Part shown: positions 2,729-47,320 of the stretch, in pieces
Layout of the letters: each line of letters begins with the position of its first letter
How positions within the stretch are numbered: position 1 is the stretch's first letter
NCBI GenBank assembly: GCA_964589635.1
Contig: CAZPRI010000001.1
Span: 1-50,319, forward strand
Direction: 5' to 3'
Length of the DNA: 50,319 nt
Source: an uncultured Candidatus Saccharibacteria bacterium
GTDB taxonomy: Bacteria > Patescibacteriota > Minisyncoccia > Phycocordibacterales > JAACPR01
Translations under genes and position numbers: made by a program
The notes under the pieces: model-generated
What the model was told of the DNA's origin: nothing
Databases searched by the model: none
The model's input: the letters and a program-made list of their open reading frames with translations, nothing else

Positions 2729-5700
2729 ATGAAAAAATATTTATTGTTAGCTTTGTTAACGTTTGTTCCGTTTTTTGCAAGCGCTCAAGAAGCACCAGGG
2801 TTATATGTTTCAGATTTATTAATTGAAAAAACAAATTATCAAATAGGAGAGAATGTGACAGGAAGTTTTGACATATTCAATAGTTCAGAATCAGACGCAT
2901 CTGATTTGTATTATTCGTTATCATTAGTAAACGAAAGCTCAGTAACGGGAATAGGTAGTTCAGAAATCGAAGGACCATTTTTTGTGCATGCAAGCACTTC
3001 TGCTCCCGTGAATTTTGTCTATAAAATAAATGAAAAAATAGAGGATTCTAATCAATTACAAGTATCTCTGCATAAAAATAATGGTGCTGTTGTTGCGACA
3101 GGAAAAATAAATATTACTATTTCTGGAGATAATTTAAATTTTGCGGAATACAAACTAAAGGTTCCTTCATTGGTTGATGCTTACGAAACTGAAATACCTA
3201 CAATTGAAGAAATAGAGAGTAGAGAGGTTGGTGAGATGTCTTTTGATGAATTGGAAAAAGAAATTTTCATGATTCAACAATTTCAAGATGGTGATACAGA
3301 TTTCACACTGAATGATGTTCCTTATGTAGAAAAAGATGAAGAATTACTACTTATCGTTGATGAAGAGATTGAAGAGGTTGAAATAACAATATATAGAAAA
3401 AACTTCAACGGAGAGAATGTTTATTCATCCGTTCCTACTCCAGAAGATAACGATGGAGAAAAAAATATAACTATTCCAACTAATTTCACAGCCGGATATT
3501 ATGTCGGAGAAATTAAAGTTGATGGATATGTTACTTCACGATTTTCTTATAATATATTAGGAACACAGGCTGATATATTTAGTCTTACTTCAGATTCTCT
3601 TTCTCCAAAAAAAGGAGAATCATTTAATGTGAATTTAGTTTTGGGAGGGTGGCCTGTTGATGTGATAGGTTCTGAAGTTAATTCACAGCCAGAATACGTT
3701 GATATAGATTTGTTAGTTACAAATCAAAAAGGTGAGGTTGTTGATCAATATTCTCAGACTGTAATGGTTCCTGAGGTTATCGAAGAAAATGGTCAAACAA
3801 GTAATATATTCAACCTACCTATTAATCTAAAAGCAAAAAGTTCAGCAGAGAGCTTAACATTTGATTTGTTTGTTTATGATTCAGATACAGGGCAAATCCT
3901 AGATAGTCTACAGACAACTTTTGGATCTGAAATTAATGAAGAAAGTCCTAGTCTGAAAGTACTAATAGTTTCACTAATAATATTAATAGCTCTTTCTGCA
4001 ATTATATTTGCATTCAAGCTTGGTAAAAAAATACCAACAGTTGTATTAGTTCTTCTATTTGCATTAACAGTTTTCGGTTCATTTTCTACAGAAAAAACAG
4101 AGGCCTCATGGTGGACAGCAATAATTGATTCGCATAATGCATATTACAAGGGAGCACCTTCTGTGAGAGCATTGTGGGTACAAAATGGATATCTTAATAT
4201 CGATACTCCAAAACTGTATAGTGTGAAAAAATATCAACCAAATGAATCATTCACTTATGATGCAACATACTCAATTATTGCAGGAACATCGAATGGTTAT
4301 CTAGGATATATGATTGGAACACCTAGTGAGGCAGACTGGCACACATATACAAGTCTTGAATCTGCAAAGGCAGGTATACAATATTATTTAGATAACTACT
4401 CACTTCCATATTGGGCTATAAACTGGTACGGGCAATGTCTTGATGGAAATGCAGTTTCTTGTAATTTTTTGGATGGATACTCTAACCTATATGGTATCGA
4501 TATAGATGCACGACTAGCTGCTTCAACATTCACAGAAGAATTTTCAGGGTATTCATTTAGCAAGAGTTATTCTTACTCACACAATATGACAATGCCTTCT
4601 ACTCCTGGAGACTATTACATTCCTCTTCATATAACTTACTGTACTGCTTCTCATGGTTGCGCAGATAAAACATATATACAAAGAGTTGAAGTCACTGAAG
4701 ATACTGGTTCATTTTTAGGTGCACCTATTATTGAGGGCCCAAGCACTGGTAAAATTGATGAAGTGTTGAATTTCACAGCTGTAACATATTCTGAAGTCGC
4801 TTCAAATGGATCATTCATTAAAAAAGCCTTGGCTCAAGGTGCAGGTGATCAGGTTAGATATGGAATAGATTGGGATAATAATGATTCTATTGATGAATGG
4901 GCACCTTCTACTGGATATGAAAATATAGGTATAAAAGTCCCTTTCTCTAATTCTTGGGACACTACAGGAAGTTATACTTTTAAAGTATTAGCTGAAAATC
5001 AGGCTGGACTACAATCAGCCTGGACAACAAAAAATATCTTGATAGGAGAATATGACACATGCAGTGATTTTCCTGGAGAAAGGGAATGCATATCTAATAC
5101 ATGGCATGAATGGGTCTGCACATCTGATGGCTGGGAATTGTCTAATACGGGTGAGGTGTGCACAGTGGCTGATGATTATACATTGAGTTGTAGTTACAGT
5201 CCTTCAAGTTCAGTTGCTGAGGGGGGTAGTGTTACTGTCGAGGCTAGCATCTATAAAAATAATACCCTTCAGGAGGATGTTGACTTTGATTTTATATGGA
5301 AATTAAATGGTAATATAGTTAATAGTAATAATAAATCTGTTACTTTCGACAATTTAGATAATGGGTTTTATAATCTATTTCTCGAATTAGAGGACTTGAA
5401 TGAAGGAAAAAAAGTCGAAAATTTCCTAGAAGCCTGTCCATTCTCTATTGGTTCTAGTATTGAAGTTCCAGAAATATCTAGCTTCAAAATTACACCAAAC
5501 TTTGCTCCAAATTGTAAAGCATCATTTGTTGCAACAAATGTGACTACCTGTTCAATTATCGATGTTGATGGAGCTACTGTTGGTGAACCAATTTCTGATA
5601 TTGATGATGGTGATACTGATAGTACTATTAATGCTACGAATCGTCCTGTAGAAAAAGTTGGAACATTTCGTGTCAGATGTGAGGGATCAAATACAAAAAC

Positions 5701-6360: not shown

Positions 6361-6849
6361 ATGGCAATTACAAAAGATAAAAAGAAAGAAATACTAAAGA
6401 AATTGAATGACGTTACTACTCAAGAGTCAGTAGTGTTTGTAAATTTCCATAGTTTACCTGTTGCTGAAACTACAGAGTTGAGAAGAGAACTTCGATCAAA
6501 AGAAGTTAATTACTTTGTGGCAAAAAAGACATTGGTAAAAAAAGCATTTCAGGATTCAAAAATAAAAGGAGACCTTCCAGAGCTAGAAGGGGAACTTGCT
6601 GTTGTGTATGCAAATGACTCTACAACTGCTGCGAGAGAAATCTATTCTTTCCAAAAGAAATTTACAGATAAAATAAATATCTTAGGAGGAGTTTTTGAAG
6701 ACAAGTTCTTGAATAAATCTGAAATGGAGGAGATTGCTCTAATTCCATCAATCGATGTTCTTAGAGGAATGTTCGTGAATGTTATTAATTCACCAATTCA
6801 AGGATTTGCAATGGCAATAAAAGCAATTGCTGAAAGTAAAGAAGCGTAA
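6361..6849 (+). CDS. rplJ: 50S ribosomal protein L10
   Basis: 162 aa with an L10-like sequence, immediately upstream of rplL. Confidence 0.9.
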   Translation: MAITKDKKKEILKKLNDVTTQESVVFVNFHSLPVAETTELRRELRSKEVNYFVAKKTLVKKAFQDSKIKGDLPELEGELAVVYANDSTTAAREIYSFQKKFTDKINILGGVFEDKFLNKSEMEEIALIPSIDVLRGMFVNVINSPIQGFAMAIKAIAESKEA

Positions 6850-10621: not shown

Positions 10622-11227
10622 ATGAAATACATTATAGGAACAAAAGAAAACATGACACAAATTTTTACCGAAGAAGGTGAAGTTGTTCCTGTTACAATCG
10701 TGAAAGCAAATCCTATTGTTATTACTCAGGTTAAAACTGAAGATATTGATGGTTATGAAGCTATTCAATTTGGTTTTGGTGAAAGAAAGGAAAAAAACAT
10801 CTCAAAGGCTGTAAAAGGCCATGTTAAAGATTTAGGAAATTTTGCAGGATTGAAAGAATTAAAAGTTGGAAAAACTGAGTTCAAAGTAGGGGACATACTA
10901 ACAATTGAATCATTTGAAGATGGAGACAATATTGAATCAACATCAATCTCAAAAGGTAAAGGTTTTCAAGGTGTTGTTAAAAGACATGGTTTTAAAGGAG
11001 GAAGAAGATCTCATGGACAAAAACACTCAGAAAGAGAACCTGGATCAATTGGTGCAACGGGACCACAAAGAGTATTTAAAGGTACAAGAATGGGAGGAAG
11101 AATGGGTACTGATAAGGTTACTCAAAGAGGAATTAGTATTGCTAAGGTAGACAAAGAGAACAATTTGCTTTATGTTAAGGGCTCATTACCTGGAAGAAGA
11201 GGTACTTTGGTTGAAATTAAAGGTTAG
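10622..11227 (+). CDS. rplC: 50S ribosomal protein L3
   Basis: MKYIIGTKENMTQIF start matches the L3 N-terminus, and KGKGFQGVVKRHGFKGG is present. The track ORF starts at TTG 10598; ATG 10622 is preferred. Confidence 0.93.
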   Translation: MKYIIGTKENMTQIFTEEGEVVPVTIVKANPIVITQVKTEDIDGYEAIQFGFGERKEKNISKAVKGHVKDLGNFAGLKELKVGKTEFKVGDILTIESFEDGDNIESTSISKGKGFQGVVKRHGFKGGRRSHGQKHSEREPGSIGATGPQRVFKGTRMGGRMGTDKVTQRGISIAKVDKENNLLYVKGSLPGRRGTLVEIKG

Positions 11228-13700: not shown

Positions 13701-16499
13701 ATGGAATTAAAAAATACCTTTCTTACTATTGAATCAGGGAAAATAGATTCTTTGGAAAGAGAAAAAGAAATTTTACAGAACGAAATTCTTGAAAGAGAAA
13801 AAAAAATCTCAGATTCAAATCCTGAAATAGTAAGAAATCAGGCAGTTGCTGAAACGTTATCTGAGTATGCTCAAAATAAACCACATGAAGTTTTAGATAA
13901 TGAAATACTTTTGGATGAGAAATCAGAGCATGAAATTGTTCTTGCGCTTTCTCCCGAAAAACATGATGACAAAATGGCGAACCTAATAGGTTTAATTCAA
14001 ACGAAAGGTATTTTGAATACTTTAGCAGTTATCCAAAAGACAGAAGATTCTCACGTGCAGGACGACTTTCACAGATTTTTAGTTCAGTATGTAAAAGAGG
14101 GTCTTCCTGTGAACGGGCTTACAGATAAAAGTGAATTAACAAAAATTTTAAAAAGAACTTTGTTTGAAATTGTTTTACCAAGTTTTAGGGGCGGGGAAGA
14201 AGGTGGTTTTAAGGTTTTATATAACAATATGAAACAGTTTTATACAGGAATGCTTTCTATTGCAAATGAAACTGATTATTTAACTCTAGAAATTGCAAAC
14301 GCTATTGGATCAAGAGAATTCATATTTTACGTGTCCGTGAGCGACTCATCTATAGATTTATTTGAAAAACAAATTCTTTCTATTTTCCCAGATGCAAGAA
14401 TGGAAGTTAAAAATGATGATTATAATATTTTTGGAGAAGCGGGCGAATCTTCTGGTGCTTATGCTACTCAAAAAGAATTGACAGTGAAAACTTTGAAAAC
14501 TGCAGAGGAGATGGATACTGATCCAGTGCGAGTTATGTTAAATATTTTCTCAAAACTTGATGAACATAATGAAGCTGCAGCAATCCAAATTATCTTCAAA
14601 CCTGTAAAAGATTTTTATACTAAAGCTTATTTGAAAGGTTTGGCCAAAGCGGAAAAGGGTGAGGGTGCTTCAGAGTTCTTTAGTATAAGAAACACAACCG
14701 GAGACAAATTCATGAGAGGAGTTTCTAAGGCTGTATCTATGACCGGGTCTATTTTTGAAGGAAGGAAAAGTTCAGAAGATGAAAAACCAAAGGATGTTGA
14801 CTCAAACCTTATAGAAAATGTAAACAAGAAAATTACTTCAGAAGTTGTTTCAACAAATTTACGACTAGTGGCTTCATCTGCTACTAAGGCTCGAGCTGAT
14901 GCTATTTTGTCGGAAATTAAGTCTGCCTTTAATCAGTATCAAAACACTAAAGGTAATAGATTGGAATTTGTTAATGTTTCTGAAAAGTATAAAAAGACAT
15001 TCTTTAAGAAATTTTCATTTAGAGAATTCAATCCAGCAAATGATATGCCACTTAGTATAGATGAATTATCTTCTTTAGCTTATTTTGTTTCTGAACAAAA
15101 AGACCTAAGCCCACAACTTAAAACTTCTGGATTTAAGACATCATCAGCACCTGTGAATATTGCTAGTGATGGAATTTTACTCGGAAAAAATGTCCACAGA
15201 GGAGCAGACACAGAAATTCATTTTTCAGACAATGACAGAATGAGACACTTTTATGCGATCGGACAAACAGGAACTGGTAAGACAACACTTTTGAAAAATA
15301 TGATAATTCAAGATATTAAAAACGGAGACGGTGCTTGTTTTATCGACCCGCATGGATCCGATGTTCAAGATATTTTGGCGAATATTCCACCAGAAAGAAT
15401 GGATGATGTTATCTATTTTGATCCTGCCGACATGAAGAGACCGATGGGGCTAAATATGCTTGAATACGATTCTAATTATCCAGAACAAAAAACTTTTGTT
15501 GTTAATGAATTGTTTTCTATTTTTCAAAAATTGTATGGAGAGTCTAATCCAGAATCTATGGGTCCTATGTTTGAACAATATTTCAGAAACGCGACAATGC
15601 TCGTGATTGAAGATCAAGAATCAGGCTCAACACTTCTTGATGTTTCAAGAGTTCTTGTTGATAAAGAGTTTAGAGAAATGAAATTGTCTAAATGTAAGAA
15701 CCCGGTAATTTTGACTGCATGGAGAGAGAACCTCGAAAAAGCGGGAGGGGAAGCGTCTCTTGCCAATGTTGCTCCGTACATTACATCAAAGTTCGATGTA
15801 TTTTTAGCTAACGACATAATGCGACCAATTATTGCTCAAGAAAAATCAAGTTTTAATTTCAGGGACATTATGGATAATAAGAAGATTTTACTTGTAAATC
15901 TTTCGAAGGGAAGACTTGGGGATATAAACTCAAGCTTGATTGGTTTGATTTTGGTTGGAAAGATTTTGATGGCAGCTCTTTCAAGAGTTGATTCGTTTGG
16001 AAAAGAAATGGCACCATTTTATTTATATATTGATGAGTTTCAAAATGTTACAACTCCATCTATTTCTGCAATTTTGTCAGAAGCCAGAAAGTATCAACTT
16101 TCATTAAACATAGCTCATCAATTCATAGATCAGTTATCAGATGGAATTAGAAGTTCTGTCTTTGGTAACGTTGGAACTATTTGTACATATCGAGTTGGAG
16201 CCAAGGATGCTGAGTTTCTAGAGTCACAATTCAGTCCAACTTTTGTTGCAAAAGATATACAAAATATAGACAACTATAATGCGTACATCAAAATGCTTTC
16301 AAATGGTGTACCAATAAATCCATTTTCTCTCCGAGCACTCGTTCCACCAGAAGGAAATCTCGAGCAAGTAGAAAAATTAAAGGAATATTCTTCTCTGAAG
16401 TATGGAAGAGTACGAGAGGAAGTGGAAGAAGAGATTATGAATAGGTATAAAAAAGAGGATAAACCTGTTCAAGAAAGAAACCCATTCGATAAGATATAG
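13701..16499 (+). CDS. TraD/VirD4-like (type IV coupling protein-like) P-loop ATPase with a ~500-aa unknown N-terminal region
   Basis: 932 aa. Walker A GQTGTGKTT (15261-15287), Walker B YLYIDEFQ (DE at 16032-16037), then ARKYQLSLNIAHQFIDQL typical of TraG/TraD C-terminal modules. No obvious TM segments. Confidence 0.75.
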   Translation: MELKNTFLTIESGKIDSLEREKEILQNEILEREKKISDSNPEIVRNQAVAETLSEYAQNKPHEVLDNEILLDEKSEHEIVLALSPEKHDDKMANLIGLIQTKGILNTLAVIQKTEDSHVQDDFHRFLVQYVKEGLPVNGLTDKSELTKILKRTLFEIVLPSFRGGEEGGFKVLYNNMKQFYTGMLSIANETDYLTLEIANAIGSREFIFYVSVSDSSIDLFEKQILSIFPDARMEVKNDDYNIFGEAGESSGAYATQKELTVKTLKTAEEMDTDPVRVMLNIFSKLDEHNEAAAIQIIFKPVKDFYTKAYLKGLAKAEKGEGASEFFSIRNTTGDKFMRGVSKAVSMTGSIFEGRKSSEDEKPKDVDSNLIENVNKKITSEVVSTNLRLVASSATKARADAILSEIKSAFNQYQNTKGNRLEFVNVSEKYKKTFFKKFSFREFNPANDMPLSIDELSSLAYFVSEQKDLSPQLKTSGFKTSSAPVNIASDGILLGKNVHRGADTEIHFSDNDRMRHFYAIGQTGTGKTTLLKNMIIQDIKNGDGACFIDPHGSDVQDILANIPPERMDDVIYFDPADMKRPMGLNMLEYDSNYPEQKTFVVNELFSIFQKLYGESNPESMGPMFEQYFRNATMLVIEDQESGSTLLDVSRVLVDKEFREMKLSKCKNPVILTAWRENLEKAGGEASLANVAPYITSKFDVFLANDIMRPIIAQEKSSFNFRDIMDNKKILLVNLSKGRLGDINSSLIGLILVGKILMAALSRVDSFGKEMAPFYLYIDEFQNVTTPSISAILSEARKYQLSLNIAHQFIDQLSDGIRSSVFGNVGTICTYRVGAKDAEFLESQFSPTFVAKDIQNIDNYNAYIKMLSNGVPINPFSLRALVPPEGNLEQVEKLKEYSSLKYGRVREEVEEEIMNRYKKEDKPVQERNPFDKI

Positions 16500-17554: not shown

Positions 17555-17576
17555 ATATTTACTTGTCCAAAAACCC

Positions 17577-17713
17577 CGTCATCCCCCACAACACCACCGT
17601 CATCCTCCGCCCTACACCACCGTCATCCTCGGGTTTAACCCGGGGACCCATGTTTAAAACTATCGTAAATAATATTTTTAAGGCCTAGGTCCCTGCCTAC
17701 GCAGGGATGACGG
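17577..17713. repeat. GTCATYC-hairpin composite element, copy 2, preceded by tandem half-sites
   Basis: CGTCATCC at 17577, 17598 and 17621 (21-23 nt period). Arm CGTCATCCTCGGGTTTAACCCGGGGACCC, AT-rich spacer, then the inverted arm GGCCTAGGTCCCTGCCTACGCAGGGATGACGG. Confidence 0.8.
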
Positions 17714-17825
17714 AGGAGGGTGTTTTTTAATTTATTCTGCTGAGTTTAGTTCTCATGAGGTGGGAAAATACCTATTTATCCAAAAAAAAAAGTATAATAT
17801 TACTAGTTATTAATTTATTTAAAAT

Positions 17826-27383: not shown

Positions 27384-29939
27384 GTGTGTATTCCTGTATT
27401 CTTAGTGTTGCTATTGGGAACATCTAAACTAAATAATGATTTAAATTCATCATCATTAAGTCTGGTCAATTTTAATCTTTTAGCACAAAATTATATTCAA
27501 AATGCGAATTGTCCTGTAGAGAAGGATTTGACCGAACACATCAATGATGAAATATTTGATAGAACATCTTCTGCTATTCCAGAGTCTTCACCAACAGACC
27601 TATTTATTTCAAGAGGTAATAGTGCGTCCTGGAATGAAGAAATAGGTGGAGTATGGGAAAGAAATCCAAATGTTTTAAAATCTAATAATAAACTATTGGA
27701 TTTCTCTGGGGTCTCACCATGGAATTCAGGTACTGGTTATAACAGAGCAGGAACATTGATAACTCCTAGGCATATTATTTATGCCAATCATTATAATCCA
27801 AGTAAGGGTGAACACCCTATAGAAATAGGAACAAAAATTAATTTTGTGGATATGAACAACTCCATTGTAGAAAGAACATTGGTGGATTCTAGAAAGGTTT
27901 ATGGTACTGATATTCAAGTTGGGTTATTGAATGAAGATGTTCCAGAAAATATACCGTTTTATCCAATATTGGATTCTGGAAACCTAGAAAAGTATCTTGG
28001 AAACAAATCAAAAGATTTATTTTTAATAGCATTAAATCAAGATCATGATGTTATTGTAAGGGAGATTTTACAACCCATTAATTCTGTAAGAATCTCTCAT
28101 AAAATCCCTGTTTCAGATCAACTTAATTTGTTCAGTAAAAACTTAAGGGTAGGAGATTCTGGTAATCCAATGTTTTTTAGTATTAATGGTGATTTAGTGC
28201 TCATTGCTGGGCATGCTAGTAAGGTTGCTGGTCCATCATATTCATTTTATAAAAAAGAGATTCAAGATACTATCAATCAGATGAGTTCAGGGTACACATT
28301 GAAGAATTTTGACCTTTCATGCTTCAGGCCTCATATTGTTTTGTCTGATGAGGCTCCTCTTGTTGTTCCTGAAAAATTTGATGTTGGTGATAATGTTGGT
28401 TCAATAAAAATTAAAAGTGGTTTACAAAGTGGCGGATACGTATTTTCTATATCAAAAGGTAATGAGGACGGACTGTTGTCTATAAATAGTTCAACAGGGA
28501 AAATTGTTGTAGCAAGCAAGATATCTAATCAGTTAAAAAGCTCATCAAGAGAAATAGAAATAAGTGTTAAGTCTGATGTTTTTCCTGACACAGCAGTGTA
28601 TCAATCATACAAAATATATTTTGAGGATTATTTACCAAAATTTTCCGCTCTTATTGAAGATAAAAAGGATGATTCGATTAATTTTGCATGGAGAACAACT
28701 TCTGCAAAACCAAGAACAGTTAGTATCCCTGTAGAGACTAGATATAAACATCATATTTTTAAAAACAGTGTATTTTTGGGGACTGTAGAAAAAAACACTT
28801 TCACAGATCTTGATTTTAAAACTGAAGAACCGTCTAGGTACTTAATATATGTTGAAAGTGATAATGATCTTATTGGTTTTTCTGAAATAATCATTAATCC
28901 TTCAGAAATTAATACTCCTAACAACGCACCTATCCTATCTTCAATAGGAGATCAAGATGTCGTAGAAGAATCAACATTATCTTTAGAAATAGAGGCAACT
29001 GATGCAGATAGAGACACTCTCTCATATTCAGTTGATTCTTTGCCAGAGAATGCCTCATTTAATCCAAATTCAAGAAAATTTATTTTTGAACCAGATCAGA
29101 CTCAAGAAGGACAATACGATATTACCTTTATAGTTTCAGATGGGGAATTGAAAGATGAAGAAGCAATTGTAATCACTGTTACAAATCTAGGAGACTCAAA
29201 GTCTATTGATGACTCAGATAATGATGGAATTTTAGACACACAAGATAAATGTCCAAATACTCCAGCAAATATAAAAACTCACGTGAACAAATTTGGTTGT
29301 CCAAAACCAGTTCATACAAACTTTGATACGGGAACAGATTTGGATGATGTTGACCCGACAGCTTCAATTACAGGCCTTGAATTAGGAGTATCAAACAAAG
29401 GAAAAATTAAATTCCTAGAAGACGTTACGCTTAACACTAGCTCATATATAACAAAAAGAGTTAATCTTGATAATTTGATTAAGATTGAAAAAAATAAGGT
29501 TACAATTGATTCAGATAGTGCGCCACAATTAAATAGAAGAGCAACTATTGAGTTGGAGGGTGTCGAATTTGATACTCCGGTTATAAAGAAGGATGGAAAT
29601 GTGATATTGTGTCCATTTAGAGTCGACGCTTCAGGAGATGAGGATTGTATAATTGAATCATACGATAAATCAACAGGTCTTCTAGTTTTTACAGTTTCAG
29701 GTTTCTCAACATATGAAATTCAAGAAGGGTCAGGTGAAAATGAAACAACTGTTTCAGAAGTTAAACCTACATCAAGTGTAAACACTGATAAAAGAACTAG
29801 TTCTGGAGGAAGGGGAGGTTCCTCATCAAAAGATAGTGGAGAAAAAGAAGTAACACTGATCAATTTTCTAAAAATTCTTTTATTTTTTGGGCTGATCTCT
29901 CAAGATCAAGTAAACTTTATTACAAGCTTATTTATTTAG
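27384..29939 (+). CDS. Large surface protein: trypsin-like serine peptidase-like N-domain, cadherin-like repeat, thrombospondin type-3-like Ca-binding repeat
   Basis: GTG start (the true start may lie upstream). H in TPRHIIYANH, D in GTDIQVGLL, S in GDSGNPMF (Ser codon 28158-28160). Also ATDADRDTLSYSV cadherin-like, DDSDNDGILDTQDKCPNTP TSP3-like, and a hydrophobic C-terminus. Confidence 0.7.
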   Translation: MCIPVFLVLLLGTSKLNNDLNSSSLSLVNFNLLAQNYIQNANCPVEKDLTEHINDEIFDRTSSAIPESSPTDLFISRGNSASWNEEIGGVWERNPNVLKSNNKLLDFSGVSPWNSGTGYNRAGTLITPRHIIYANHYNPSKGEHPIEIGTKINFVDMNNSIVERTLVDSRKVYGTDIQVGLLNEDVPENIPFYPILDSGNLEKYLGNKSKDLFLIALNQDHDVIVREILQPINSVRISHKIPVSDQLNLFSKNLRVGDSGNPMFFSINGDLVLIAGHASKVAGPSYSFYKKEIQDTINQMSSGYTLKNFDLSCFRPHIVLSDEAPLVVPEKFDVGDNVGSIKIKSGLQSGGYVFSISKGNEDGLLSINSSTGKIVVASKISNQLKSSSREIEISVKSDVFPDTAVYQSYKIYFEDYLPKFSALIEDKKDDSINFAWRTTSAKPRTVSIPVETRYKHHIFKNSVFLGTVEKNTFTDLDFKTEEPSRYLIYVESDNDLIGFSEIIINPSEINTPNNAPILSSIGDQDVVEESTLSLEIEATDADRDTLSYSVDSLPENASFNPNSRKFIFEPDQTQEGQYDITFIVSDGELKDEEAIVITVTNLGDSKSIDDSDNDGILDTQDKCPNTPANIKTHVNKFGCPKPVHTNFDTGTDLDDVDPTASITGLELGVSNKGKIKFLEDVTLNTSSYITKRVNLDNLIKIEKNKVTIDSDSAPQLNRRATIELEGVEFDTPVIKKDGNVILCPFRVDASGDEDCIIESYDKSTGLLVFTVSGFSTYEIQEGSGENETTVSEVKPTSSVNTDKRTSSGGRGGSSSKDSGEKEVTLINFLKILLFFGLISQDQVNFITSLFI

Positions 29940-30631: not shown

Positions 30632-31398
30632 TGATTCAATTAAAGACAAAAGAAGATATAGAAATATTGAAAGTCGCAGGAAAGCATCTTGCAGACATAA
30701 TGAGACAATCAGAGAAATTTGCAAAACCTGGAGTGTCTGTTGATGTTGTAGACGATTTCTTTATGGAAGAGATAAAGAAACTTGGAGATAAGCCTGCTTT
30801 TTTAAACTATAAACCATACGGAGCAAAGAGGCCTTTCCCTGCTTCTCTATGTGTTTGCGTGAACAATGAAATAGTTCATGGAATTCCAAATGAGGACCCT
30901 GTTGTTTTAAAAGAAGGAGACATTGTTACTTTTGATGCTGGTTTAATTCACAAAGGAATGATTGTAGATCATGCCGTTACATATGCAGTTGGAGAAATTT
31001 CAAAAGAAGCTAGGAAACTTTTAAATGTCACAAAGGATGCCTTGATGGCTGGAATAAAAGAGGCGGTGATTGGAAATAGAATAGGTGATATTTCTGCAAA
31101 AATTCAATCAATTGCCGAAAAAAATGGTTTAGGAATTATTGAAGGATTAGCAGGTCATGGAGTTGGTTTCGAAATTCATGAAGATCCATACGTTCCAAAT
31201 GAAGGTGAAAAAAGGACTGGAGAATTAATCGAGGAAGGTCTAGTTATTGCAATAGAGCCAATGTTCTCTACTGGTTCTTCAGAGATAAAATTAGCAAAAG
31301 ATGGGTATACATATTTGACAGGAGATGGAAGCCTTTCAGCACAATTTGAACATACTATCGCTGTAACAAAAGATGGTCCGGTTATTTTGACAAAGTAG
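30631..31398 (+). CDS. map: Methionine aminopeptidase, type I
   Basis: HGIP, FDAG...DHAVT, GHGVGFEIHE and IEPM metal-ligand pattern. Confidence 0.93.
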   Translation: MIQLKTKEDIEILKVAGKHLADIMRQSEKFAKPGVSVDVVDDFFMEEIKKLGDKPAFLNYKPYGAKRPFPASLCVCVNNEIVHGIPNEDPVVLKEGDIVTFDAGLIHKGMIVDHAVTYAVGEISKEARKLLNVTKDALMAGIKEAVIGNRIGDISAKIQSIAEKNGLGIIEGLAGHGVGFEIHEDPYVPNEGEKRTGELIEEGLVIAIEPMFSTGSSEIKLAKDGYTYLTGDGSLSAQFEHTIAVTKDGPVILTK

Positions 31399-31450
31399 GG
31401 AAAATATGTAATATGATGAAGTATAAAGATCTTTAAAATAAGTTTGTATT

Positions 31451-31502
31451 TAGTCATAGCTTTAAGTTTCTCATTCAATTTAGAGGTTTAAAGCTATGAC
31501 TA
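31451..31502. repeat. Perfect 15-bp inverted repeat (hairpin) downstream of map
   Basis: TAGTCATAGCTTTAA (31451-31465) and TTAAAGCTATGACTA (31488-31502) with a 22-nt loop and no T-run. Confidence 0.9.
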
Positions 31503-31561
31503 AGCGGTTATAGTATTCGTCCCGAAGCAGTTGCGAATAAACTCCAAACAAAAACAAGACA

Positions 31562-31852
31562 ATGTCTACAAAAAGAGATGGAAAGATAGTTAATATTATT
31601 CAGAATCTTATGCGAACACCAGCGTCCCGGTTAGGTGCGTTACTCGATCTTACAAACAAGTTAAAGGATCGAAACAGGGTTGGTATTGATACATACATTC
31701 TTTTGTGCGAATTGAACAGGGGGAGTGTTGAGGTAAAAAACCAAAACTTATCAAATGGCTCGGTGTCATCAAAACCTCTGTCACAACGGAGAAATTCGTT
31801 GCTAAAGAGAAATTCCTTGAAGATTCCAGAGAGGTCATATTCAGCGGTTTAG
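31562..31852 (+). CDS. Hypothetical 96-aa basic protein (foreign-looking composition)
   Basis: ORF track. Visibly more G/C-ending and CGN/CTN codons than its neighbours; no known domain. Confidence 0.4.
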   Translation: MSTKRDGKIVNIIQNLMRTPASRLGALLDLTNKLKDRNRVGIDTYILLCELNRGSVEVKNQNLSNGSVSSKPLSQRRNSLLKRNSLKIPERSYSAV

Positions 31853-31879
31853 ATTGGAGCTTTAAAGGAGACTTTCTTG

Positions 31880-32233
31880 ATGAAGATCAAAAAGTCGAAG
31901 ATCACCCTTGGTGAACAAACTATTCTTTATGGAAGCATTGGAAAGAATATTGCTAATGTTTCTATCGTTGAGGAATTGATTTACGAAGCGAAAGTTGAAA
32001 CTACTCTCATGGATCTTTGGGATCTGCTCAAAAAAAAGAACAAAGGGCAGGAGGACGTACTGCTAAATAATGGTTATTCAAACGTCTTCTTCATTCGACA
32101 TACTTTCGGTGCTCTGCGTATTGTGCAGGCGAGATGGATAGATGAAGGTTGGTACTTAATGTATCACTCCATTAATAACCTTGGAGATTGTATTCCTGAT
32201 TATGGTGACTGCGTCTTCTGTCGCAATTCTTGA
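31880..32233 (+). CDS. Hypothetical 117-aa protein with Cys-rich C-terminus
   Basis: AAAGGAG SD (31864-31870) 9 nt upstream of ATG 31880. C-terminus DCIPDYGDCVFC, TGA stop, strong terminator follows. Confidence 0.55.
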   Translation: MKIKKSKITLGEQTILYGSIGKNIANVSIVEELIYEAKVETTLMDLWDLLKKKNKGQEDVLLNNGYSNVFFIRHTFGALRIVQARWIDEGWYLMYHSINNLGDCIPDYGDCVFCRNS

Positions 32234-32240
32234 AACTTTA

Positions 32241-32274
32241 AACCCGATTCGCTTACGCGAATCGGGTTTTTTCT
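32241..32274 (+). terminator. Rho-independent terminator of the two-gene cassette
   Basis: AACCCGATTCGC-TTAC-GCGAATCGGGTT followed by TTTTT. Confidence 0.85.
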
Positions 32275-32336
32275 TTATGTCTTGGTTTCTCAGTACCCGC
32301 AGGGCATAAATATATTTCAGGTTGTAAATCTATTTT

Positions 32337-32450
32337 GGAAACCCAGTCCTTAAAAGATATTTCTTACAGAAAACGTGGGTCCCCGGGTTAAACCCGAGGA
32401 TGACGTTTACTGTGTTGTAGGATAACGGTGGTTTTTGTAGGATGACAGTA
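32337..32450. repeat. GTCATYC-hairpin element, copy 3 (reverse orientation, distal arm truncated, tandem half-sites)
   Basis: The reverse complement of 32375-32405 is CGTCATCCTCGGGTTTAACCCGGGGACCCAC, near-identical to 17621-17650. GGATAACGG (32420) and GGATGACAG (32440) are half-sites; the spacer is homologous to copy 2. Confidence 0.75.
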
Positions 32451-32567
32451 GTTTTTTGGAGTTTGGAATGATGCAAGTAGAGACAATGATATTCGCAAGA
32501 TTGAACCTTGCGAATGGTATGCAATAGACTTAGAATACCTTCATTACTATTTACTTTTTATATAAAA

Positions 32568-38074: not shown

Positions 38075-39865
38075 TCATGCTCTCAGAAGTAAGTCAGTAA
38101 CAAGATCTTCATACAAGGAGCATTTTGATAATAAATCATCATGTTTTCCTTTTGCAATAATTCTCCCTTTGTCCATGACTACAATTACGTCTGCGTCTTG
38201 AACAGTAGAAAGTCTATGTGCGATGAATATTCTTGTAGCTCCTGGAGACACGGTATCCAAAGCATTGTGTACAAGCTTTTCTGTCGTTGGATCAACAGCG
38301 CTTGTTGCTTCGTCTACAATCAAAATGTCAGGAACCTTCAACAGGATTCTGGCGATAGCCAATCTCTGTTTTTGACCACCGGAAATCTTGTTTCCATCTT
38401 CTCCAATCTTTTTTCGAAGTCTCGGGATTAGAGATCCAAGTCCTACAGATTTCAAAACATTTTTGAGTTCCTTGTCTGTGACATTTAGTCTCGTACTTTT
38501 CGGAACACCAAAGAGAAGGTTTTCTCTAATGGTTTCCGAAAGTATGAGAGGGGTTTGTTCGATAAATCCTGTGCACTCTCTGTAAGAAGAGTGTTCAATA
38601 TTCATCAAATCAATCCCATCAACCCTTATCGATCCAATTTGCGGATGGTATGCGAGTTGCAAGAGGCTAACTAGAGTCGATTTTCCTGCTCCAGAAGGTC
38701 CTACGATCCCAACCTTTTGGCCTGGCTCTATATCCAGAGAAATCCCGTGCAGTGAATGTTCATCAGAACCTGGGTAGGTAAAGTAAACATTTTCAAAGAC
38801 GACTTTTCCTTTGATTTGATCTACATGAACTGCATTATCTAATTCAGGGACATCTGTTGGAGTGTCGATGATTTGGAAATACTGACTGATGTCTGCCCAT
38901 TGCTCTGACAATCCTCTGAATAGATACTGGGTACTTTGCAATTGTCCAAGTGAATGGTTAGACCACGCAAGAACTGCCGCAAGGGCTCCAATCTCATATT
39001 TTCCAAGATGTATCATGTAAGCACAAATCACTAAAGTAACAGCTCTCCCAATTGCCGACATCCCTGTGCATGGAATAAAATAATTTCCAAGACTTTTAAA
39101 CAGGGTGCTGTGCTGCCTTCTTCTATACACACGGTGACGAAGGTGTTTTTGGCAGAAACGATGATGTTCTCCTGCAATCTGTAATGATCCCATGTGTTGA
39201 ATGAGAGCCTTTCCAGATTTATTAACTACTCTTTTTCTAAAAGCCATAAAGTTTTTCATTGGTTTTGTAAAACGCCTTCCAATTATGACTCCATGAGTGA
39301 CGATGAGGATTGCAAAAAGTAACGCGACCAAACCTGTTTGAGGGTAGAGTACGCACATACTTCCAAGTGCAATCAGTATTCCCATCGACATGGGTAGTAT
39401 TTGATAGAAGAGTGAGCTAAAGAAAGAACGCAATGCATTCTCACCGTCGCTCAGTTTTGTCATGGTAACCAAAGAGTGTTTATTTCTATGTTGACCAATA
39501 CTAAGCTTTTTCATGTGGGAGAGAGATTTTTCTACAATACTGTCTGCTAGCAAACAATCTAGATGTTTTACTTCCCAGTTCCACCGAACTCTGTCTATGA
39601 TGACGCCAACAATGTAGCAGGATCCAAGAAGGATCGGCCACACTGCAAGTTCATCCAGGCTTGCTTTGTTTGCAAAAAGAGTTGTAATCCTTCCAATAAA
39701 AAAAGGAACTACCATAAAGAGGGAATATGTTAGGAAAATCAAAAAGAGATTCACTAGCATTTTCCACTTGAATTCAGAGTAGGTCCGTACAATTCGAAGG
39801 AGCATTTCGCTATTTTTTTGTTTTTTCAATGTTGTTTGGTTGTTGTTCCGTTTTGTATTATACAC
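38075..39865 (-). CDS. ABC exporter, fused permease/ATPase (MsbA/type-1 exporter-like)
   Basis: 596 aa with 6 TM segments, then GPSGAGKST, LSGGQKQRLAIARILL and ILIVDEATSAVD. TGA stop. Confidence 0.92.
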   Translation of the reverse strand: MYNTKRNNNQTTLKKQKNSEMLLRIVRTYSEFKWKMLVNLFLIFLTYSLFMVVPFFIGRITTLFANKASLDELAVWPILLGSCYIVGVIIDRVRWNWEVKHLDCLLADSIVEKSLSHMKKLSIGQHRNKHSLVTMTKLSDGENALRSFFSSLFYQILPMSMGILIALGSMCVLYPQTGLVALLFAILIVTHGVIIGRRFTKPMKNFMAFRKRVVNKSGKALIQHMGSLQIAGEHHRFCQKHLRHRVYRRRQHSTLFKSLGNYFIPCTGMSAIGRAVTLVICAYMIHLGKYEIGALAAVLAWSNHSLGQLQSTQYLFRGLSEQWADISQYFQIIDTPTDVPELDNAVHVDQIKGKVVFENVYFTYPGSDEHSLHGISLDIEPGQKVGIVGPSGAGKSTLVSLLQLAYHPQIGSIRVDGIDLMNIEHSSYRECTGFIEQTPLILSETIRENLLFGVPKSTRLNVTDKELKNVLKSVGLGSLIPRLRKKIGEDGNKISGGQKQRLAIARILLKVPDILIVDEATSAVDPTTEKLVHNALDTVSPGATRIFIAHRLSTVQDADVIVVMDKGRIIAKGKHDDLLSKCSLYEDLVTDLLLRA

Positions 39866-47071: not shown

Positions 47072-47320
47072 TTATTTTAAATATTTTTCTATCAAAATCT
47101 CTTTCTTTTTTCTAGACCACTTTTTGATTTGAATCTCTCTTTTTCTGGTAGATGAAAGGGAAGAGTGTTTTTCTAGATAAACTAACTTGAATTGCTTTCT
47201 TTTGGTATAAGACACACCTCGGTTTTGATTGTGTTCAAGAAGCCTACGGTTTGGGTTTGATGTCACACCAACATAAATTCATTTGTTATCGAAGCTTTTT
47301 AAAATATATAGGTAGTGCAT
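47072..47320 (-). pseudogene. GIY-YIG nuclease-family gene with in-frame TGA at codon 14
   Basis: ATG 47320 reads MHYLYILKSFDNK, then TGA (47279-47281), then IYVGVTSNPNRRLLEHNQNRG...REIQIKKWSRKKKEILIEKY. GIY...YVG and the RR-L-EHN and KKWSR-KK motifs match small GIY-YIG proteins. Confidence 0.7.

What the first reader, a model, noticed from the sequence alone, without database searches (positions are those of the whole stretch)
31562..32274. Compositionally foreign two-gene cassette of unknown function after map
The 96-aa and 117-aa ORFs use visibly more G/C-rich codons (CGG, CTC, GCG, CTG) than the neighbouring genes. ORF2 has a strong AAAGGAG Shine-Dalgarno, which most genes in this window lack. 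The unit ends with a 12-bp-stem terminator. It is flanked on the left by the 15-bp inverted repeat and on the right by a GTCATYC element. ORF1 is basic. ORF2 ends in a Cys-rich DCIPDYGDCVFC motif. The pair could be a toxin-antitoxin, anti-defence or other mobile cargo, with no family recognisable by eye.
Basis: partly seen in the sequence, partly recalled or inferred. Interest (0 to 1): 0.6.

Follow-up and report, generated by a model that had tools for sequence, protein, structure and literature searches.

The report
Frameshifted orphan DGR target gene
The two small "genes" are the pieces of a single gene, broken by two frameshifts, that once encoded the hypervariable protein of a diversity-generating retroelement. 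It sits as a GC-richer insert between map and ndk of a Patescibacteria genome and is most likely a dead relic, not a toxin-antitoxin or anti-defence pair.

Summary
GC3 is 0.40 and 0.41 against 0.23±0.055 for the window's genes. The other features also hold: an AAAGGAG in a genome that hardly uses Shine-Dalgarno sites, a 13-bp terminator stem, a 16-bp left inverted repeat and a right GTCATYC element.

The "two genes" are one gene. ORF1 and ORF2 share a frame, and the stretch between them (31741-31905) is homologous in another frame. Read through, the 223 residues align end to end (45% identity) with a roughly 200-250-aa Patescibacteria family of "hypothetical proteins".

In four homologous loci this family lies next to a reverse transcriptase, or an Avd remnant. 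Its last 38 or so codons match a template repeat that differs almost only at adenines. It is therefore a DGR variable (target) protein.

The "Cys-rich motif" is the variable region. The left inverted repeat is a leader hairpin conserved with covariation across the family. The terminator is homologous too.

The window holds no RT, Avd or template repeat. The variable region is identical in at least 10 assemblies. Relatives have map directly next to ndk. My verdict is an orphan, decaying DGR target gene. The right-hand element is a separate Ssn-related hairpin repeat.

The parts
31387..31414 (+). Promoter-like site: TTGACA, 16 nt, TAATAT. It overlaps the last codons of map. It is the likely own promoter of the module.
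   Evidence: The consensus scan scored it 10 of 12. Family loci L091, L092, L094, L095 and L125 show TTGACA plus a TATAAT-like box at the matching distance upstream of the leader hairpin. A promoter role is inferred, not shown.
31449..31504 (+). It is a conserved structured element of the 5' leader of this gene family.
   Evidence: The repeat is 16 bp and perfect. It folds at -24.5 kcal/mol, z -6.2. It is homologous in 8 family loci. There are 20 pairs, 13 with compensatory changes, and 99.4% of cells are paired. 0 of 500 shuffles reach that, and slid controls reach 31-51%. Invariant G.U pairs point to an RNA on the sense strand. Rfam has no match.
31562..31741 (+). CDS piece A: the N-terminal 60 codons of the ancestral gene, in frame 2 (the true part of 'ORF1').
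   Evidence: It aligns with the N-termini of P0007 and P0257 (..LGALLDLTNKL.. against ..LGTLLDLINRL..).
31735..31741 (+). First frame change (-1), at an A6 run (A AAA AAC).
   Evidence: Homology moves from frame 2 to frame 1 here. Frame 1 has a TGA just upstream at 31729-31731.
31741..31905 (+). CDS piece B: the middle 55 codons, in frame 1 (PKLIKWLGVIKTSVTTEKFVAKEKF...KVEDH). It overlaps the tail of 'ORF1', the TAG, the AAAGGAG and the start of 'ORF2'.
   Evidence: tblastn with P0181, P0195 and P0205 gives 52-53% identity and E 1e-14 to 7e-16 in frame 1. DNA identity to the L094 gene is 78%, in register with its codons.
31904..31909 (+). Second frame change (+1), in a CCC/TT run.
   Evidence: Homology returns to frame 2 between ..KVEDH and LGEQ... 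Frame 1 stops at TGA 31912-31914.
31907..32233 (+). CDS piece C: the C-terminal 108 codons plus stop, in frame 2 (the true part of 'ORF2').
   Evidence: ORF2 matches 625 cluster representatives at E<=1e-3. These are mostly 200-250 aa, and ORF2 matches their C-terminal halves. The full-length alignment is A1.
32105..32221 (+). Former variable region (VR) of the DGR target. It includes the 'Cys-rich' DCIPDYGDCVFC.
   Evidence: It is positionally homologous to the VRs of L094, L095, L096 and L123. Those pair with template repeats that differ almost only at adenines: 18/20, 21/23, 20/20 and 16/16 mismatches. A content is 0.22 against 0.34 in the rest of the gene, and the last 15 codons are all NNY. 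The 3' end is 86% identical to the L094 VR end.
32240..32276 (+). Intrinsic terminator of the module: a 13-bp stem, a 4-nt loop and a T-run.
   Evidence: See (-24.9 kcal/mol, z -7.1). The position and stem sequence resemble the terminators after family genes in L091, L094, L095 and L096.
32375..32405 (-). It is followed by two more GTYATCC heads at 32418-32446 and preceded by a degenerate partner hairpin near 32290-32312. It is not part of the gene module.
   Evidence: The published SRM pattern hits the window exactly twice, here and at 17621-17651, against 0.04 expected. There is an exact second copy of 28 nt. Contig depth rises from about 6 to about 45 in metagenome contigs. A metagenome scan found 18 distinct contexts.

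Best explanation
Positions 31387-32276 are one self-contained gene module: promoter-like site, structured leader hairpin, coding region and terminator. It belongs to a Patescibacteria protein family that is the variable (target) protein of diversity-generating retroelements (DGRs).

In intact loci a reverse transcriptase with its Avd partner copies a template repeat into cDNA and misreads adenines. The cDNA replaces the last 38 or so codons of the target gene. This rewrites AAY codons into many others and diversifies a binding surface.

The copy in this window has lost that system. There is no RT, Avd or template repeat in 50 kb. The reading frame is broken twice, -1 in an A6 run and +1 in a C/T run. 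Near-invariant residues are replaced. Its G+C content has drifted part of the way towards the AT-rich host.

'ORF1' and 'ORF2' are the reading frames these breaks leave open. The basic tail of ORF1, the AAAGGAG and the start of ORF2 are out-of-frame or fortuitous by-products. The Cys-rich end is the frozen variable region.

The module lies between map and ndk, which are adjacent in the nearest relatives, so it is a lineage-specific insert.

Shown: the single-gene homology in three frames, the DGR nature of the family, the absence of partners in the window, and the invariance of the VR across assemblies. Inferred: past diversification of this copy, horizontal origin, and present lack of function.
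For: One gene, not two:
- ORF1 and ORF2 share a frame, and the stretch between them is homologous in frame 1.
- The 223-aa read-through aligns end to end with 31 homologues, at 45% identity to P0007 and 43% to P0012.
- ORF2 alone finds 625 representatives and matches their C-terminal halves.

The family is a DGR target:
- L094 carries bAvd, an RVT_1 reverse transcriptase and the target. Its TR (4327-4439) and VR (6506-6618) show 16 of 17 mismatches at TR adenines.
- L096 carries the target, an Avd-like gene and an RT, with all 20 of 20 mismatches at adenines.
- L095 has a TR and an Avd remnant, with 21 of 23.
- L123 has 16 of 16.
- L128 has an RT directly upstream of the target.
- The L094 Avd hits NCBIfam DivGenRetAVD at E 4.6e-15, below that model's cut-off.
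- The literature describes a DGR clade restricted to the CPR, with targets lacking recognisable domains, and describes remote targets (PMC8144416).

This copy is an orphan relic:
- There is no TR-like repeat in the window, including in an adenine-tolerant scan.
- There is no RT or Avd by tblastn.
- ELGGE has become ELIYE, and the near-invariant W212 is lost.
- Ten independent contigs are 100% identical across the region.
- Contigs from 2017 aquifer runs and 2025 hot-spring runs are identical, with no variant in the VR. No TR-like contig at >=80% likeness turned up in four runs.
- The gene's GC is 0.388, against 0.47-0.60 in five intact homologues that each exceed their host locus by about 8-15 points.

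It is an insert:
- map and ndk are about 20 nt apart in L011, L012 and L015.

The module is conserved:
- The leader hairpin covaries.
- The terminator and the 3' end are homologous.
Against: - Only 50 kb of the genome is visible. A DGR elsewhere could act in trans, since remote targets are known.
- The runs at hand are Logan contigs at about 4-7x depth. They hide rare variants, so low-level VR diversification cannot be excluded.
- The -1 site is a textbook slippery heptamer (A AAA AAC in the zero frame). The two shifts cancel, so programmed recoding is not formally excluded.
- ORF2 keeps an ATG behind an AAAGGAG and could yield a stand-alone C-terminal domain.
- Insertion here versus loss in relatives is polarised only by composition and by three of five relatives, which are distant (Map 53-67% identical).
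- No significant structural match ties the family to the C-type lectin fold usual for DGR targets.
Confidence: 0.85

Rival explanations
1. The gene is still functional. The ribosome shifts -1 at A AAA AAC (31735-31741) and +1 near 31904-31909, or the RNA polymerase slips in the runs. This gives the full 223-aa variable protein, possibly as a regulated low-level product served by a remote DGR.
For: The -1 site is a canonical X XXY YYZ heptamer in the right frame, at exactly the point where homology changes frame. The two shifts compensate each other. Apart from the two frame changes, none of the three homologous pieces contains a stop in its own frame. The promoter-like site, leader hairpin and terminator are intact.
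Against: No +1 slippery context exists at the second site: no re-pairing codon, and the stop lies two codons further on. Homologues have neither the A-run nor a frameshift. Near-invariant residues are lost. The ORF2 model is weak, at pLDDT 67.8 against 89.2 for P0012. No TR was found. Both sites are homopolymer runs, the commonest places for indels.
Confidence: 0.05
2. It is a split gene put to new use. ORF2 (117 aa) is translated from its own ATG behind AAAGGAG as a stand-alone C-terminal binding domain with a frozen variable region. ORF1 gives a short N-terminal fragment.
For: ORF2 covers the whole conserved C-terminal domain. It has an ATG with a strong SD-like motif 9 nt upstream. Gene callers call it in all assemblies. 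Short representatives of 94-111 aa exist in the family.
Against: The host practically never uses SD sites, with 1 of 48 genes showing one, so the motif is unlikely to act. The motif is ancestral coding sequence. The GG of ELGGE and W212 are lost. The model confidence is low. The short database members may be contig-end fragments; this was not checked.
Confidence: 0.07
3. It is the first reader's reading: a two-gene mobile cassette (toxin-antitoxin, anti-defence or other cargo) bounded by the left inverted repeat and the right GTCATYC element.
For: There are two adjacent small ORFs, a foreign composition, an insert relative to relatives and repeats on both sides.
Against: Homologues are single proteins of about 220 aa. 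The ORF1 tail and the ORF2 head are out of frame. Pfam, PHROGs, PADLOC and NCBIfam gave no hit. The left repeat is the family's leader hairpin. The right repeat is an SRM that occurs in many unrelated contexts. There is no integrase or transposase.
Confidence: 0.02
4. The frameshifts are sequencing or assembly errors, and the gene is intact in the organism.
For: Both lie in homopolymer runs.
Against: The sequence is identical in ten contigs from MEGAHIT, SPAdes, JGI and Logan assemblies of different samples, and in runs of 2017 and 2025. The runs are short (A6, C3).
Confidence: 0.01

Closest known systems
DGR variable (target) proteins of the CPR-restricted DGR clade (clade 2 of Roux et al. 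2021, PMC8144416). From my own knowledge, these were first surveyed by Paul et al. 2017, Nat Microbiol.
   Same: The family is a small protein with the variable region in its last 38 or so codons. An adjacent RVT_1 reverse transcriptase and a bAvd gene are present. The template repeat differs from the VR almost only at adenines. There is no transmembrane or known domain. The host is Patescibacteria from groundwater.
   Different: The window's copy has no RT, Avd or TR within 50 kb. It is broken by two frameshifts, has lost conserved residues and shows no VR variation between assemblies. I could not check whether this exact protein cluster is among the published target clusters.
Structurally solved DGR variable proteins with a C-type lectin fold: Mtd of Bordetella phage BPP-1, TvpA of Treponema, and TaqVP of Thermus (PMC6328139). 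The first two are from my own knowledge.
   Same: The VR sits at the C-terminus, with an AAY-rich template. The order of secondary-structure elements in the C-terminal domain is beta, alpha, alpha, then four beta strands. Weak Foldseek hits include C-type lectin-like proteins: rhodocetin at TM 0.40 and Ly49L at 0.38.
   Different: There is no significant sequence or structure match to any of them. The best Foldseek E-value is 0.09-0.47, and the PDB profile search is empty. Membership of the CLec fold is therefore unproven.
Remote or orphan DGR targets and inactive DGRs (Roux et al. 2021, PMC8144416).
   Same: A VR-bearing gene lies away from any RT, with no sign of current diversification.
   Different: A true remote target is intact and has a matching TR elsewhere. 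Here the gene is frameshifted and no TR was found in the same metagenomes.
Ssn-related motifs (SRM; NTS/dRS3 hairpin repeats cut in ssDNA by GIY-YIG Ssn nucleases; PMC11893778). This concerns the right-hand GTCATYC element only.
   Same: CGTCATCCTCGGGTTTAACCCGGGGACCCAC fits the published SRM pattern. Partner hairpins in other loci fit the NTS consensus almost letter for letter, for example GTCATTCCCGCGAAAGCGGGAATCCAG in L101. The element is multi-copy, and a GIY-YIG gene is present in the window.
   Different: The element occurs in Patescibacteria. I did not check whether the paper's survey covered that phylum. The GIY-YIG gene here carries an in-frame TGA. No nuclease-motif link was tested. 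The element is unrelated to the DGR module.

Membership tests
DGR variable (target) gene | Homology to proteins that are demonstrable DGR targets | tested here: met
   The read-through aligns full length with the family, at 43-45% identity. Members L094, L095, L096 and L123 have TR/VR pairs.
DGR variable (target) gene | A template repeat matching the VR, with mismatches confined to TR adenines | tested here: not met
   BLAST and an adenine-tolerant scan found none in the 50-kb window. No TR-like contig at >=80% likeness turned up in four metagenome runs that hold the organism. The rest of the genome was not visible.
DGR variable (target) gene | A DGR-type reverse transcriptase (and usually Avd) in the locus | tested here: not met
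   tblastn with the L094 RT and Avd against the whole window found nothing below E 0.4. The feature is met in homologous loci L094, L096, L123 and L128.
DGR variable (target) gene | An intact reading frame through the VR | tested here: not met
   There are two frame changes, at 31735-31741 and 31904-31909. The single-frame reading has an in-frame TAG at 31850.
DGR variable (target) gene | Population-level hypervariation confined to the VR | tested here: not met
   The VR is identical in ten contigs and in 2017 and 2025 runs. Caveat: these are contigs at about 4-7x depth, not raw reads.
DGR variable (target) gene | A conserved 3' end of the VR (IMH-like) and a footprint of adenine mutagenesis | tested here: inconclusive
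   Positions 32203-32239 are 86% identical to the L094 VR end. VR A content is 0.22 against 0.34 in the rest of the gene, and the last 15 codons are NNY. A run of 15 NNY codons also occurs once in 7,536 host codons.
C-type lectin-fold DGR variable proteins | CLec fold of the VR-bearing domain | tested here: inconclusive
   The AF2 model of P0012 is confident (pLDDT 89.2, pTM 0.75). Foldseek against PDB and BFVD gives no hit at E<=0.001. Only weak C-type lectin names appear, at TM 0.25-0.47. The PDB profile search is empty.
Toxin-antitoxin or anti-defence pair | Two separately evolved small genes, with a recognisable toxin, antitoxin or defence-related family | tested here: not met
   The two are fragments of one gene. 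Pfam, PHROGs, PADLOC and NCBIfam gave no hit.
Mobile element or genomic islet | Insertion relative to relatives, plus mobility genes or target-site and terminal repeats | tested here: inconclusive
   The insert is shown: map and ndk are adjacent in L011, L012 and L015. The composition is foreign. There is no integrase, transposase or flanking direct repeat. The only candidate terminal repeat is 10 nt, which is about what chance gives.
Ssn-related motif (right-hand element only) | Fits the SRM pattern HGTCWYN(0-2)YYVSBRHN(0-5)WNVSBRGN(0-2)RNCYNB, is repeated, and the genome has a GIY-YIG gene | tested here: met
   There are two hits in the window against 0.04 expected. A metagenome scan found 18 distinct contexts. 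A GIY-YIG domain lies at 47075-47278(-), E 1.2e-13, with an in-frame TGA upstream. Cleavage by the nuclease cannot be tested here.

The most novel reading that the evidence does not exclude
The intact family behind this relic may be a DGR variable-protein scaffold not recognisably related to the C-type lectin or other solved DGR target folds. The model is confident, with no significant neighbour in PDB or BFVD. The family would be expressed under a conserved, covarying 5' leader RNA hairpin that is absent from Rfam and could be a new cis-regulator of hypervariable-protein expression. In this window the C-terminal fragment (ORF2) might still be made as a frozen binder.
Probability: 0.15. Interest if true: 0.55.

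Novelty: new member of a known kind. Interest (0 to 1): 0.3.

Why it matters
For annotation:
- Two "hypothetical proteins" called in many assemblies of this organism should be merged into one pseudogene of a DGR target family.
- The composition anomaly needs no toxin or defence story.

For DGR biology the relic itself is ordinary, but following it exposed three points about the family.
- Its genes are always GC-richer than their Patescibacteria hosts, by about 8-15 points. This suggests repeated horizontal spread or a constraint tied to adenine mutagenesis.
- They carry a leader hairpin with strong covariation that no RNA database lists.
- A confident structure model has no significant structural neighbour.

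The case also shows how DGR loci decay. This window keeps a target without RT or TR. L095 keeps a TR and an Avd remnant without an RT.

Tried and rejected
- Word-indexed protein searches with ORF1 and ORF2 returned only themselves. Only the exhaustive HMMER search found the family.
- Pfam, PHROGs, PADLOC and NCBIfam gave nothing for the ORFs or for intact family members.
- Rfam found nothing credible for the leader hairpin, the terminator or the right-hand element, at gathering or at permissive thresholds.
- A search for a template repeat in the window found none, by BLAST and by an adenine-tolerant scan.
- Laying contigs of four runs on the VR at 80% likeness showed only the VR itself and a 36-nt piece of another family member.
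- I looked for remnants of RT or Avd in the flanks and found none.
- The 10-nt inverted match AAACTCCAAA/TTTGGAGTTT on either side of the unit is about what chance gives in 1.4 kb. I rejected it as a terminal repeat.
- The 13-nt direct repeat TTRGARSTTTAAA (three copies) is judged to be chance.
- The 15-nt 'insertion' in L008 is a scaffolding gap of Ns.
- I considered programmed frameshifting and ranked it low, because no +1 site exists.
- The right-hand element is absent from IMG/VR.
- Foldseek gave no significant hit with either model.
- The paper by Paul et al. 2017 is not held in the library.
Full report
**Setting.** The window is 33.8% G+C. It carries a ribosomal-protein/secY/adk/map cluster, then ndk, a DUF2238 gene, and rplT-rpmI-infC on the other strand. 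The nearest genomes found through Map are uncultured Parcubacteria/Patescibacteria, with Map 53-67% identical. The organism recurs in aquifer metagenomes of 2017 and in hot-spring metagenomes of 2025.

**Checking the observation.**
- The two ORFs exist as described.
- Their GC3 values of 0.402 and 0.412 are the highest of 51 ORFs in the window. The mean is 0.230 with sd 0.055, and the next highest is 0.352.
- AAAGGAG lies 9 nt before the ORF2 ATG. Only 1 of 48 genes in the window has even a 4-mer Shine-Dalgarno core upstream, so the motif is indeed unusual here.
- The terminator has a 13-bp stem, a 4-nt loop and a T-run. It folds at -24.9 kcal/mol with z -7.1.
- The left inverted repeat is real: 16 bp and perfect, at -24.5 kcal/mol with z -6.2.
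- The composition and the motifs are therefore confirmed and are beyond chance.

**One gene, not two.**
- ORF1 and ORF2 are in the same frame, separated by a single TAG.
- A third reading, 31732-31911 in the -1 frame, gives KKPKLIKWLGVIKTSVTTEKFVAKEKFLEDSREVIFSGLDWSFKGDFLDEDQKVEDHPW.
- Word-indexed searches found only the ORFs themselves. An exhaustive HMMER search with ORF2 found 625 cluster representatives at E<=1e-3. Most are 200-250 aa, and ORF2 matches residues of about 110-220 of them.
- Their N-terminal parts match the first 59 or so residues of ORF1. Their middle parts match the -1 frame peptide. For example, P0007 reads ..LGTLLDLINRL.. and LIKWLGTTKTSATTEKFVAKDKF.
- tblastn places the middle of P0181, P0195 and P0205 on 31738-31902 in frame 1, at 52-53% identity and E down to 7e-16. 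It places their C-termini on 31865-32230 in frame 2, at 45-46% identity and E about 1e-31.
- Joining the three pieces gives 223 residues: 31562-31741, 31741-31905 and 31907-32233. These align end to end with 31 homologues, at 45% identity to P0007.
- The frame changes are -1 within the A6 run 31735-31740 and +1 within the CCC/TT run 31904-31909.
- Ten contigs from four assemblers and many samples are 100% identical here. Logan contigs of 2017 and 2025 runs agree as well. The breaks are therefore real.
- The basic tail of ORF1 and the first nine residues of ORF2 are out-of-frame readings. AAAGGAG is the ancestral codons for K-G-D.
- Near-invariant family residues are replaced. ELGGE has become ELIYE, and W212 is gone after a two-codon insertion.

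**What the family is.**
- The family has no Pfam, NCBIfam, PADLOC or PDB sequence match.
- Where the sources name it, it is 'hypothetical protein' of Nomura-, Vogel- or Sungbacteria, or of the Patescibacteria group.
- Genomic context settles its role. In L094 the homologue P0012 follows a bAvd gene and an RVT_1 reverse transcriptase. A 113-nt repeat upstream (4327-4439) is 85% identical to the last 38 or so codons of the gene (6506-6618). Of 17 mismatches, 16 have A in the upstream copy, which is rich in AAC/AAT codons.
- The same holds elsewhere. L096 carries the target, an Avd-like gene and an RT, with 20 of 20 mismatches at adenines. L095 has a TR and an Avd remnant but no RT, with 21 of 23. 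L123 has Avd, RT and target, with 16 of 16. L128 has an RT directly upstream.
- This is the signature of diversity-generating retroelements.
- The literature describes a DGR clade restricted to the CPR whose targets lack recognisable domains. It also notes that remote targets exist (PMC8144416).
- Other members lie without an RT within the fetched flanks: L091, L092, L125 and the P0264 locus.

- The 'Cys-rich DCIPDYGDCVFC' is the former variable region, about 32105-32221. It is A-poor, at 0.22 against 0.34 for the rest of the gene. Its last 15 codons are all NNY, as expected when AAY codons are rewritten. A run of that length also occurs once in 7,536 host codons, so this is supportive only.
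- The left inverted repeat is not a boundary of a mobile element. It is homologous to a hairpin in the leaders of eight family loci. There are 20 pairs, 13 with compensatory changes, and 99.4% of cells are paired. 0 of 500 shuffles reach that, and slid controls reach 31-51%. Invariant G.U pairs indicate an RNA on the sense strand. Rfam has no counterpart.
- A promoter-like TTGACA-16-TAATAT lies at the corresponding distance upstream, overlapping the end of map.
- The terminator and the 3' end of the gene are homologous to those of the family.
- The unit is thus a complete, conserved gene module.

**State of this copy.**
- The window has no template repeat, whether by BLAST or by a scan that tolerates any mismatch opposite A. 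It has no RT or Avd.
- In four runs that hold the organism, nothing but the VR itself matches the VR at >=80% likeness, apart from a 36-nt piece of another family member.
- The VR does not differ between assemblies.
- Five intact homologues are each about 8-15 GC points richer than their host loci, with gene GC 0.47-0.60 and GC3 0.53-0.77. The window's copy is at 0.388 in a 0.338 host. 'Foreign composition' is therefore a trait of the family, and this copy looks partly ameliorated.
- The AF2 model of ORF2 is weak, at pLDDT 67.8. The model of intact P0012 reaches 89.2.

**Insert or ancestral?**
- In L011, L012 and L015, ndk starts about 20 nt after map.
- L013 has a small unrelated ORF there. 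L014 has 3.3 kb with a 133-aa gene and a 932-aa TraG/VirD4-like ATPase.
- The junction is therefore a variable spot, and the window's 1.17 kb is lineage-specific.
- A relative with IF3 67% identical, L128, has a complete RT-plus-target pair directly beside rplT-rpmI-infC. DGR cassettes do land in this neighbourhood.
- I cannot tell whether the window's copy arrived alone or is what remains of a whole cassette.

**Mechanism and rivals.**
- The best-supported account is a decaying, orphan DGR target gene (confidence 0.85).
- Programmed recoding is the most interesting rival, because the -1 site is a canonical A AAA AAC heptamer in the correct frame. No +1 site exists, however. Homologues lack both features, and conserved residues are lost (confidence 0.05).
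- A stand-alone ORF2 domain is possible but unsupported (0.07).
- A two-gene cassette (0.02) and an assembly artefact (0.01) are contradicted.

**Fold.**
- The P0012 model is confident. Its C-terminal domain has the element order beta-alpha-alpha-beta4.
- Foldseek finds no significant neighbour in PDB or BFVD. Only weak hits appear, and these include C-type lectin-like proteins and a Bdellovibrio fibre-tip domain, at TM 0.25-0.47 and E>=0.09.
- Membership of the C-type lectin fold, which solved DGR targets share (PMC6328139), stays open.

**The right-hand element.**
- GGGTCCCCGGGTTAAACCCGAGGATGAC (32377-32404) has an exact second copy at 17622-17649 on the other strand. That copy lies between rplB and an inserted thioredoxin-like gene.
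- Contig depth over the element rises about eight-fold in the metagenomes.
- A metagenome scan found 26 contigs with 18 distinct contexts.
- The element is a pair of inverted units, each GTCAT + hairpin + ATCCA. The stems of the partner hairpin covary.
- It fits the published Ssn-related motif. These are hairpin repeats (NTS/dRS3) cut in single-stranded DNA by small GIY-YIG nucleases (PMC11893778). The published pattern hits the window exactly at these two places, against 0.04 expected.
- The element is independent of the DGR module. It is absent from L091-L096.

**Verdict.** The finding is a new, broken member of a known kind. Its own interest is modest, with some added value from what it revealed about the family.

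Noticed in passing
window 32285-32465 (+) and 17560-17715 (-): These are Ssn-related hairpin repeats (SRM, NTS/dRS3-like). Each is a pair of inverted 'GTCAT + hairpin + ATCCA' units followed by two more GGATRAC heads at a spacing of about 20 nt. Both copies sit where lineage-specific DNA interrupts conserved gene clusters: map|ndk, and rplB|rpsS with an inserted thioredoxin-like gene. There are many more copies in the same metagenomes.
   Followed up: partly
L101 (around 2021-2042, minus strand) and L103 (around 3235-3256): The same SRM pair is inserted in frame inside protein-coding genes. One is a uvrB-like gene (..IEVRPV[FSSVIPAKAGIQKMDPRVKPEDDKPGGWS]QIDDVMEE..). The other is a dihydrouridine-synthase-like gene. 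The reading frame stays open. From my own knowledge, this resembles Rickettsia palindromic elements.
   Followed up: partly
window 47320-47072 (-): A small GIY-YIG nuclease gene (Pfam E 1.2e-13, 43% identical to the one in L123) carries an in-frame TGA at codon 14. It is either a nonsense pseudogene or a truncated product. It is the kind of gene that the Ssn paper links to SRM repeats. It lies between the tmRNA gene and a 194-aa ORF.
   Followed up: partly
window 31449-31504; L091 5868-6000; L092 1696-1826; L094 5880-6000; L095 9868-10000; L123 4846-5000; L125 4862-5000; L128 1085-1246: This is the conserved, covarying leader hairpin of the DGR-target family, often preceded by CAAGAATTGC and followed by a second small hairpin. 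It is not in Rfam. It is a candidate new cis-regulatory RNA.
   Followed up: partly
L091, L092, L094, L095, L096 (family genes against their flanks): Family genes are about 8-15 GC points richer than their host loci over their whole length, not only in the VR. The cause is unknown. It could be repeated horizontal transfer or a constraint linked to adenine mutagenesis.
   Followed up: partly
L095 10001-11320: This is another decaying DGR. The target, its template repeat (11010-11147) and a 52-residue Avd remnant are present. No reverse transcriptase was found in the fetched locus (10 kb upstream; 5.8 kb downstream to the contig end).
   Followed up: partly
L092 517-668 and 2609-2760: A 152-nt direct repeat (90% identical) follows a tRNA-3'-end-like sequence in each copy. 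The two copies bracket a 2-kb segment that holds an Exo_endo_phos gene and the family member. This may be an integration scar or a tandem tRNA duplication.
   Followed up: no
window 13701-16499; L014 7243-10041: A 932-aa TraG/VirD4-like ATPase sits inside the ribosomal-protein cluster, just before rplB. Its orthologue (58% identical) in relative L014 sits between map and ndk, exactly where the window has the DGR relic.
   Followed up: partly
window 27384-29939: An 851-aa protein with Ig-like (He_PIG/Big_9) domains and an S59-type autopeptidase-like domain is inserted between secY and adk.
   Followed up: no
whole window (48 gene starts): The host hardly uses Shine-Dalgarno sites, with 1 of 48 genes showing one. 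Several genes have a TATAAT-like box ending 6-10 nt before the start codon, for example at 2729, 13701, 37482, 39926 and 41809(-). This suggests leaderless or very short-leader mRNAs.
   Followed up: no
window 38075-39865 (-): An ABC transporter (fused membrane and ATPase domains) is the third compositional outlier of the window, with GC3 0.352 and GC 0.401.
   Followed up: no
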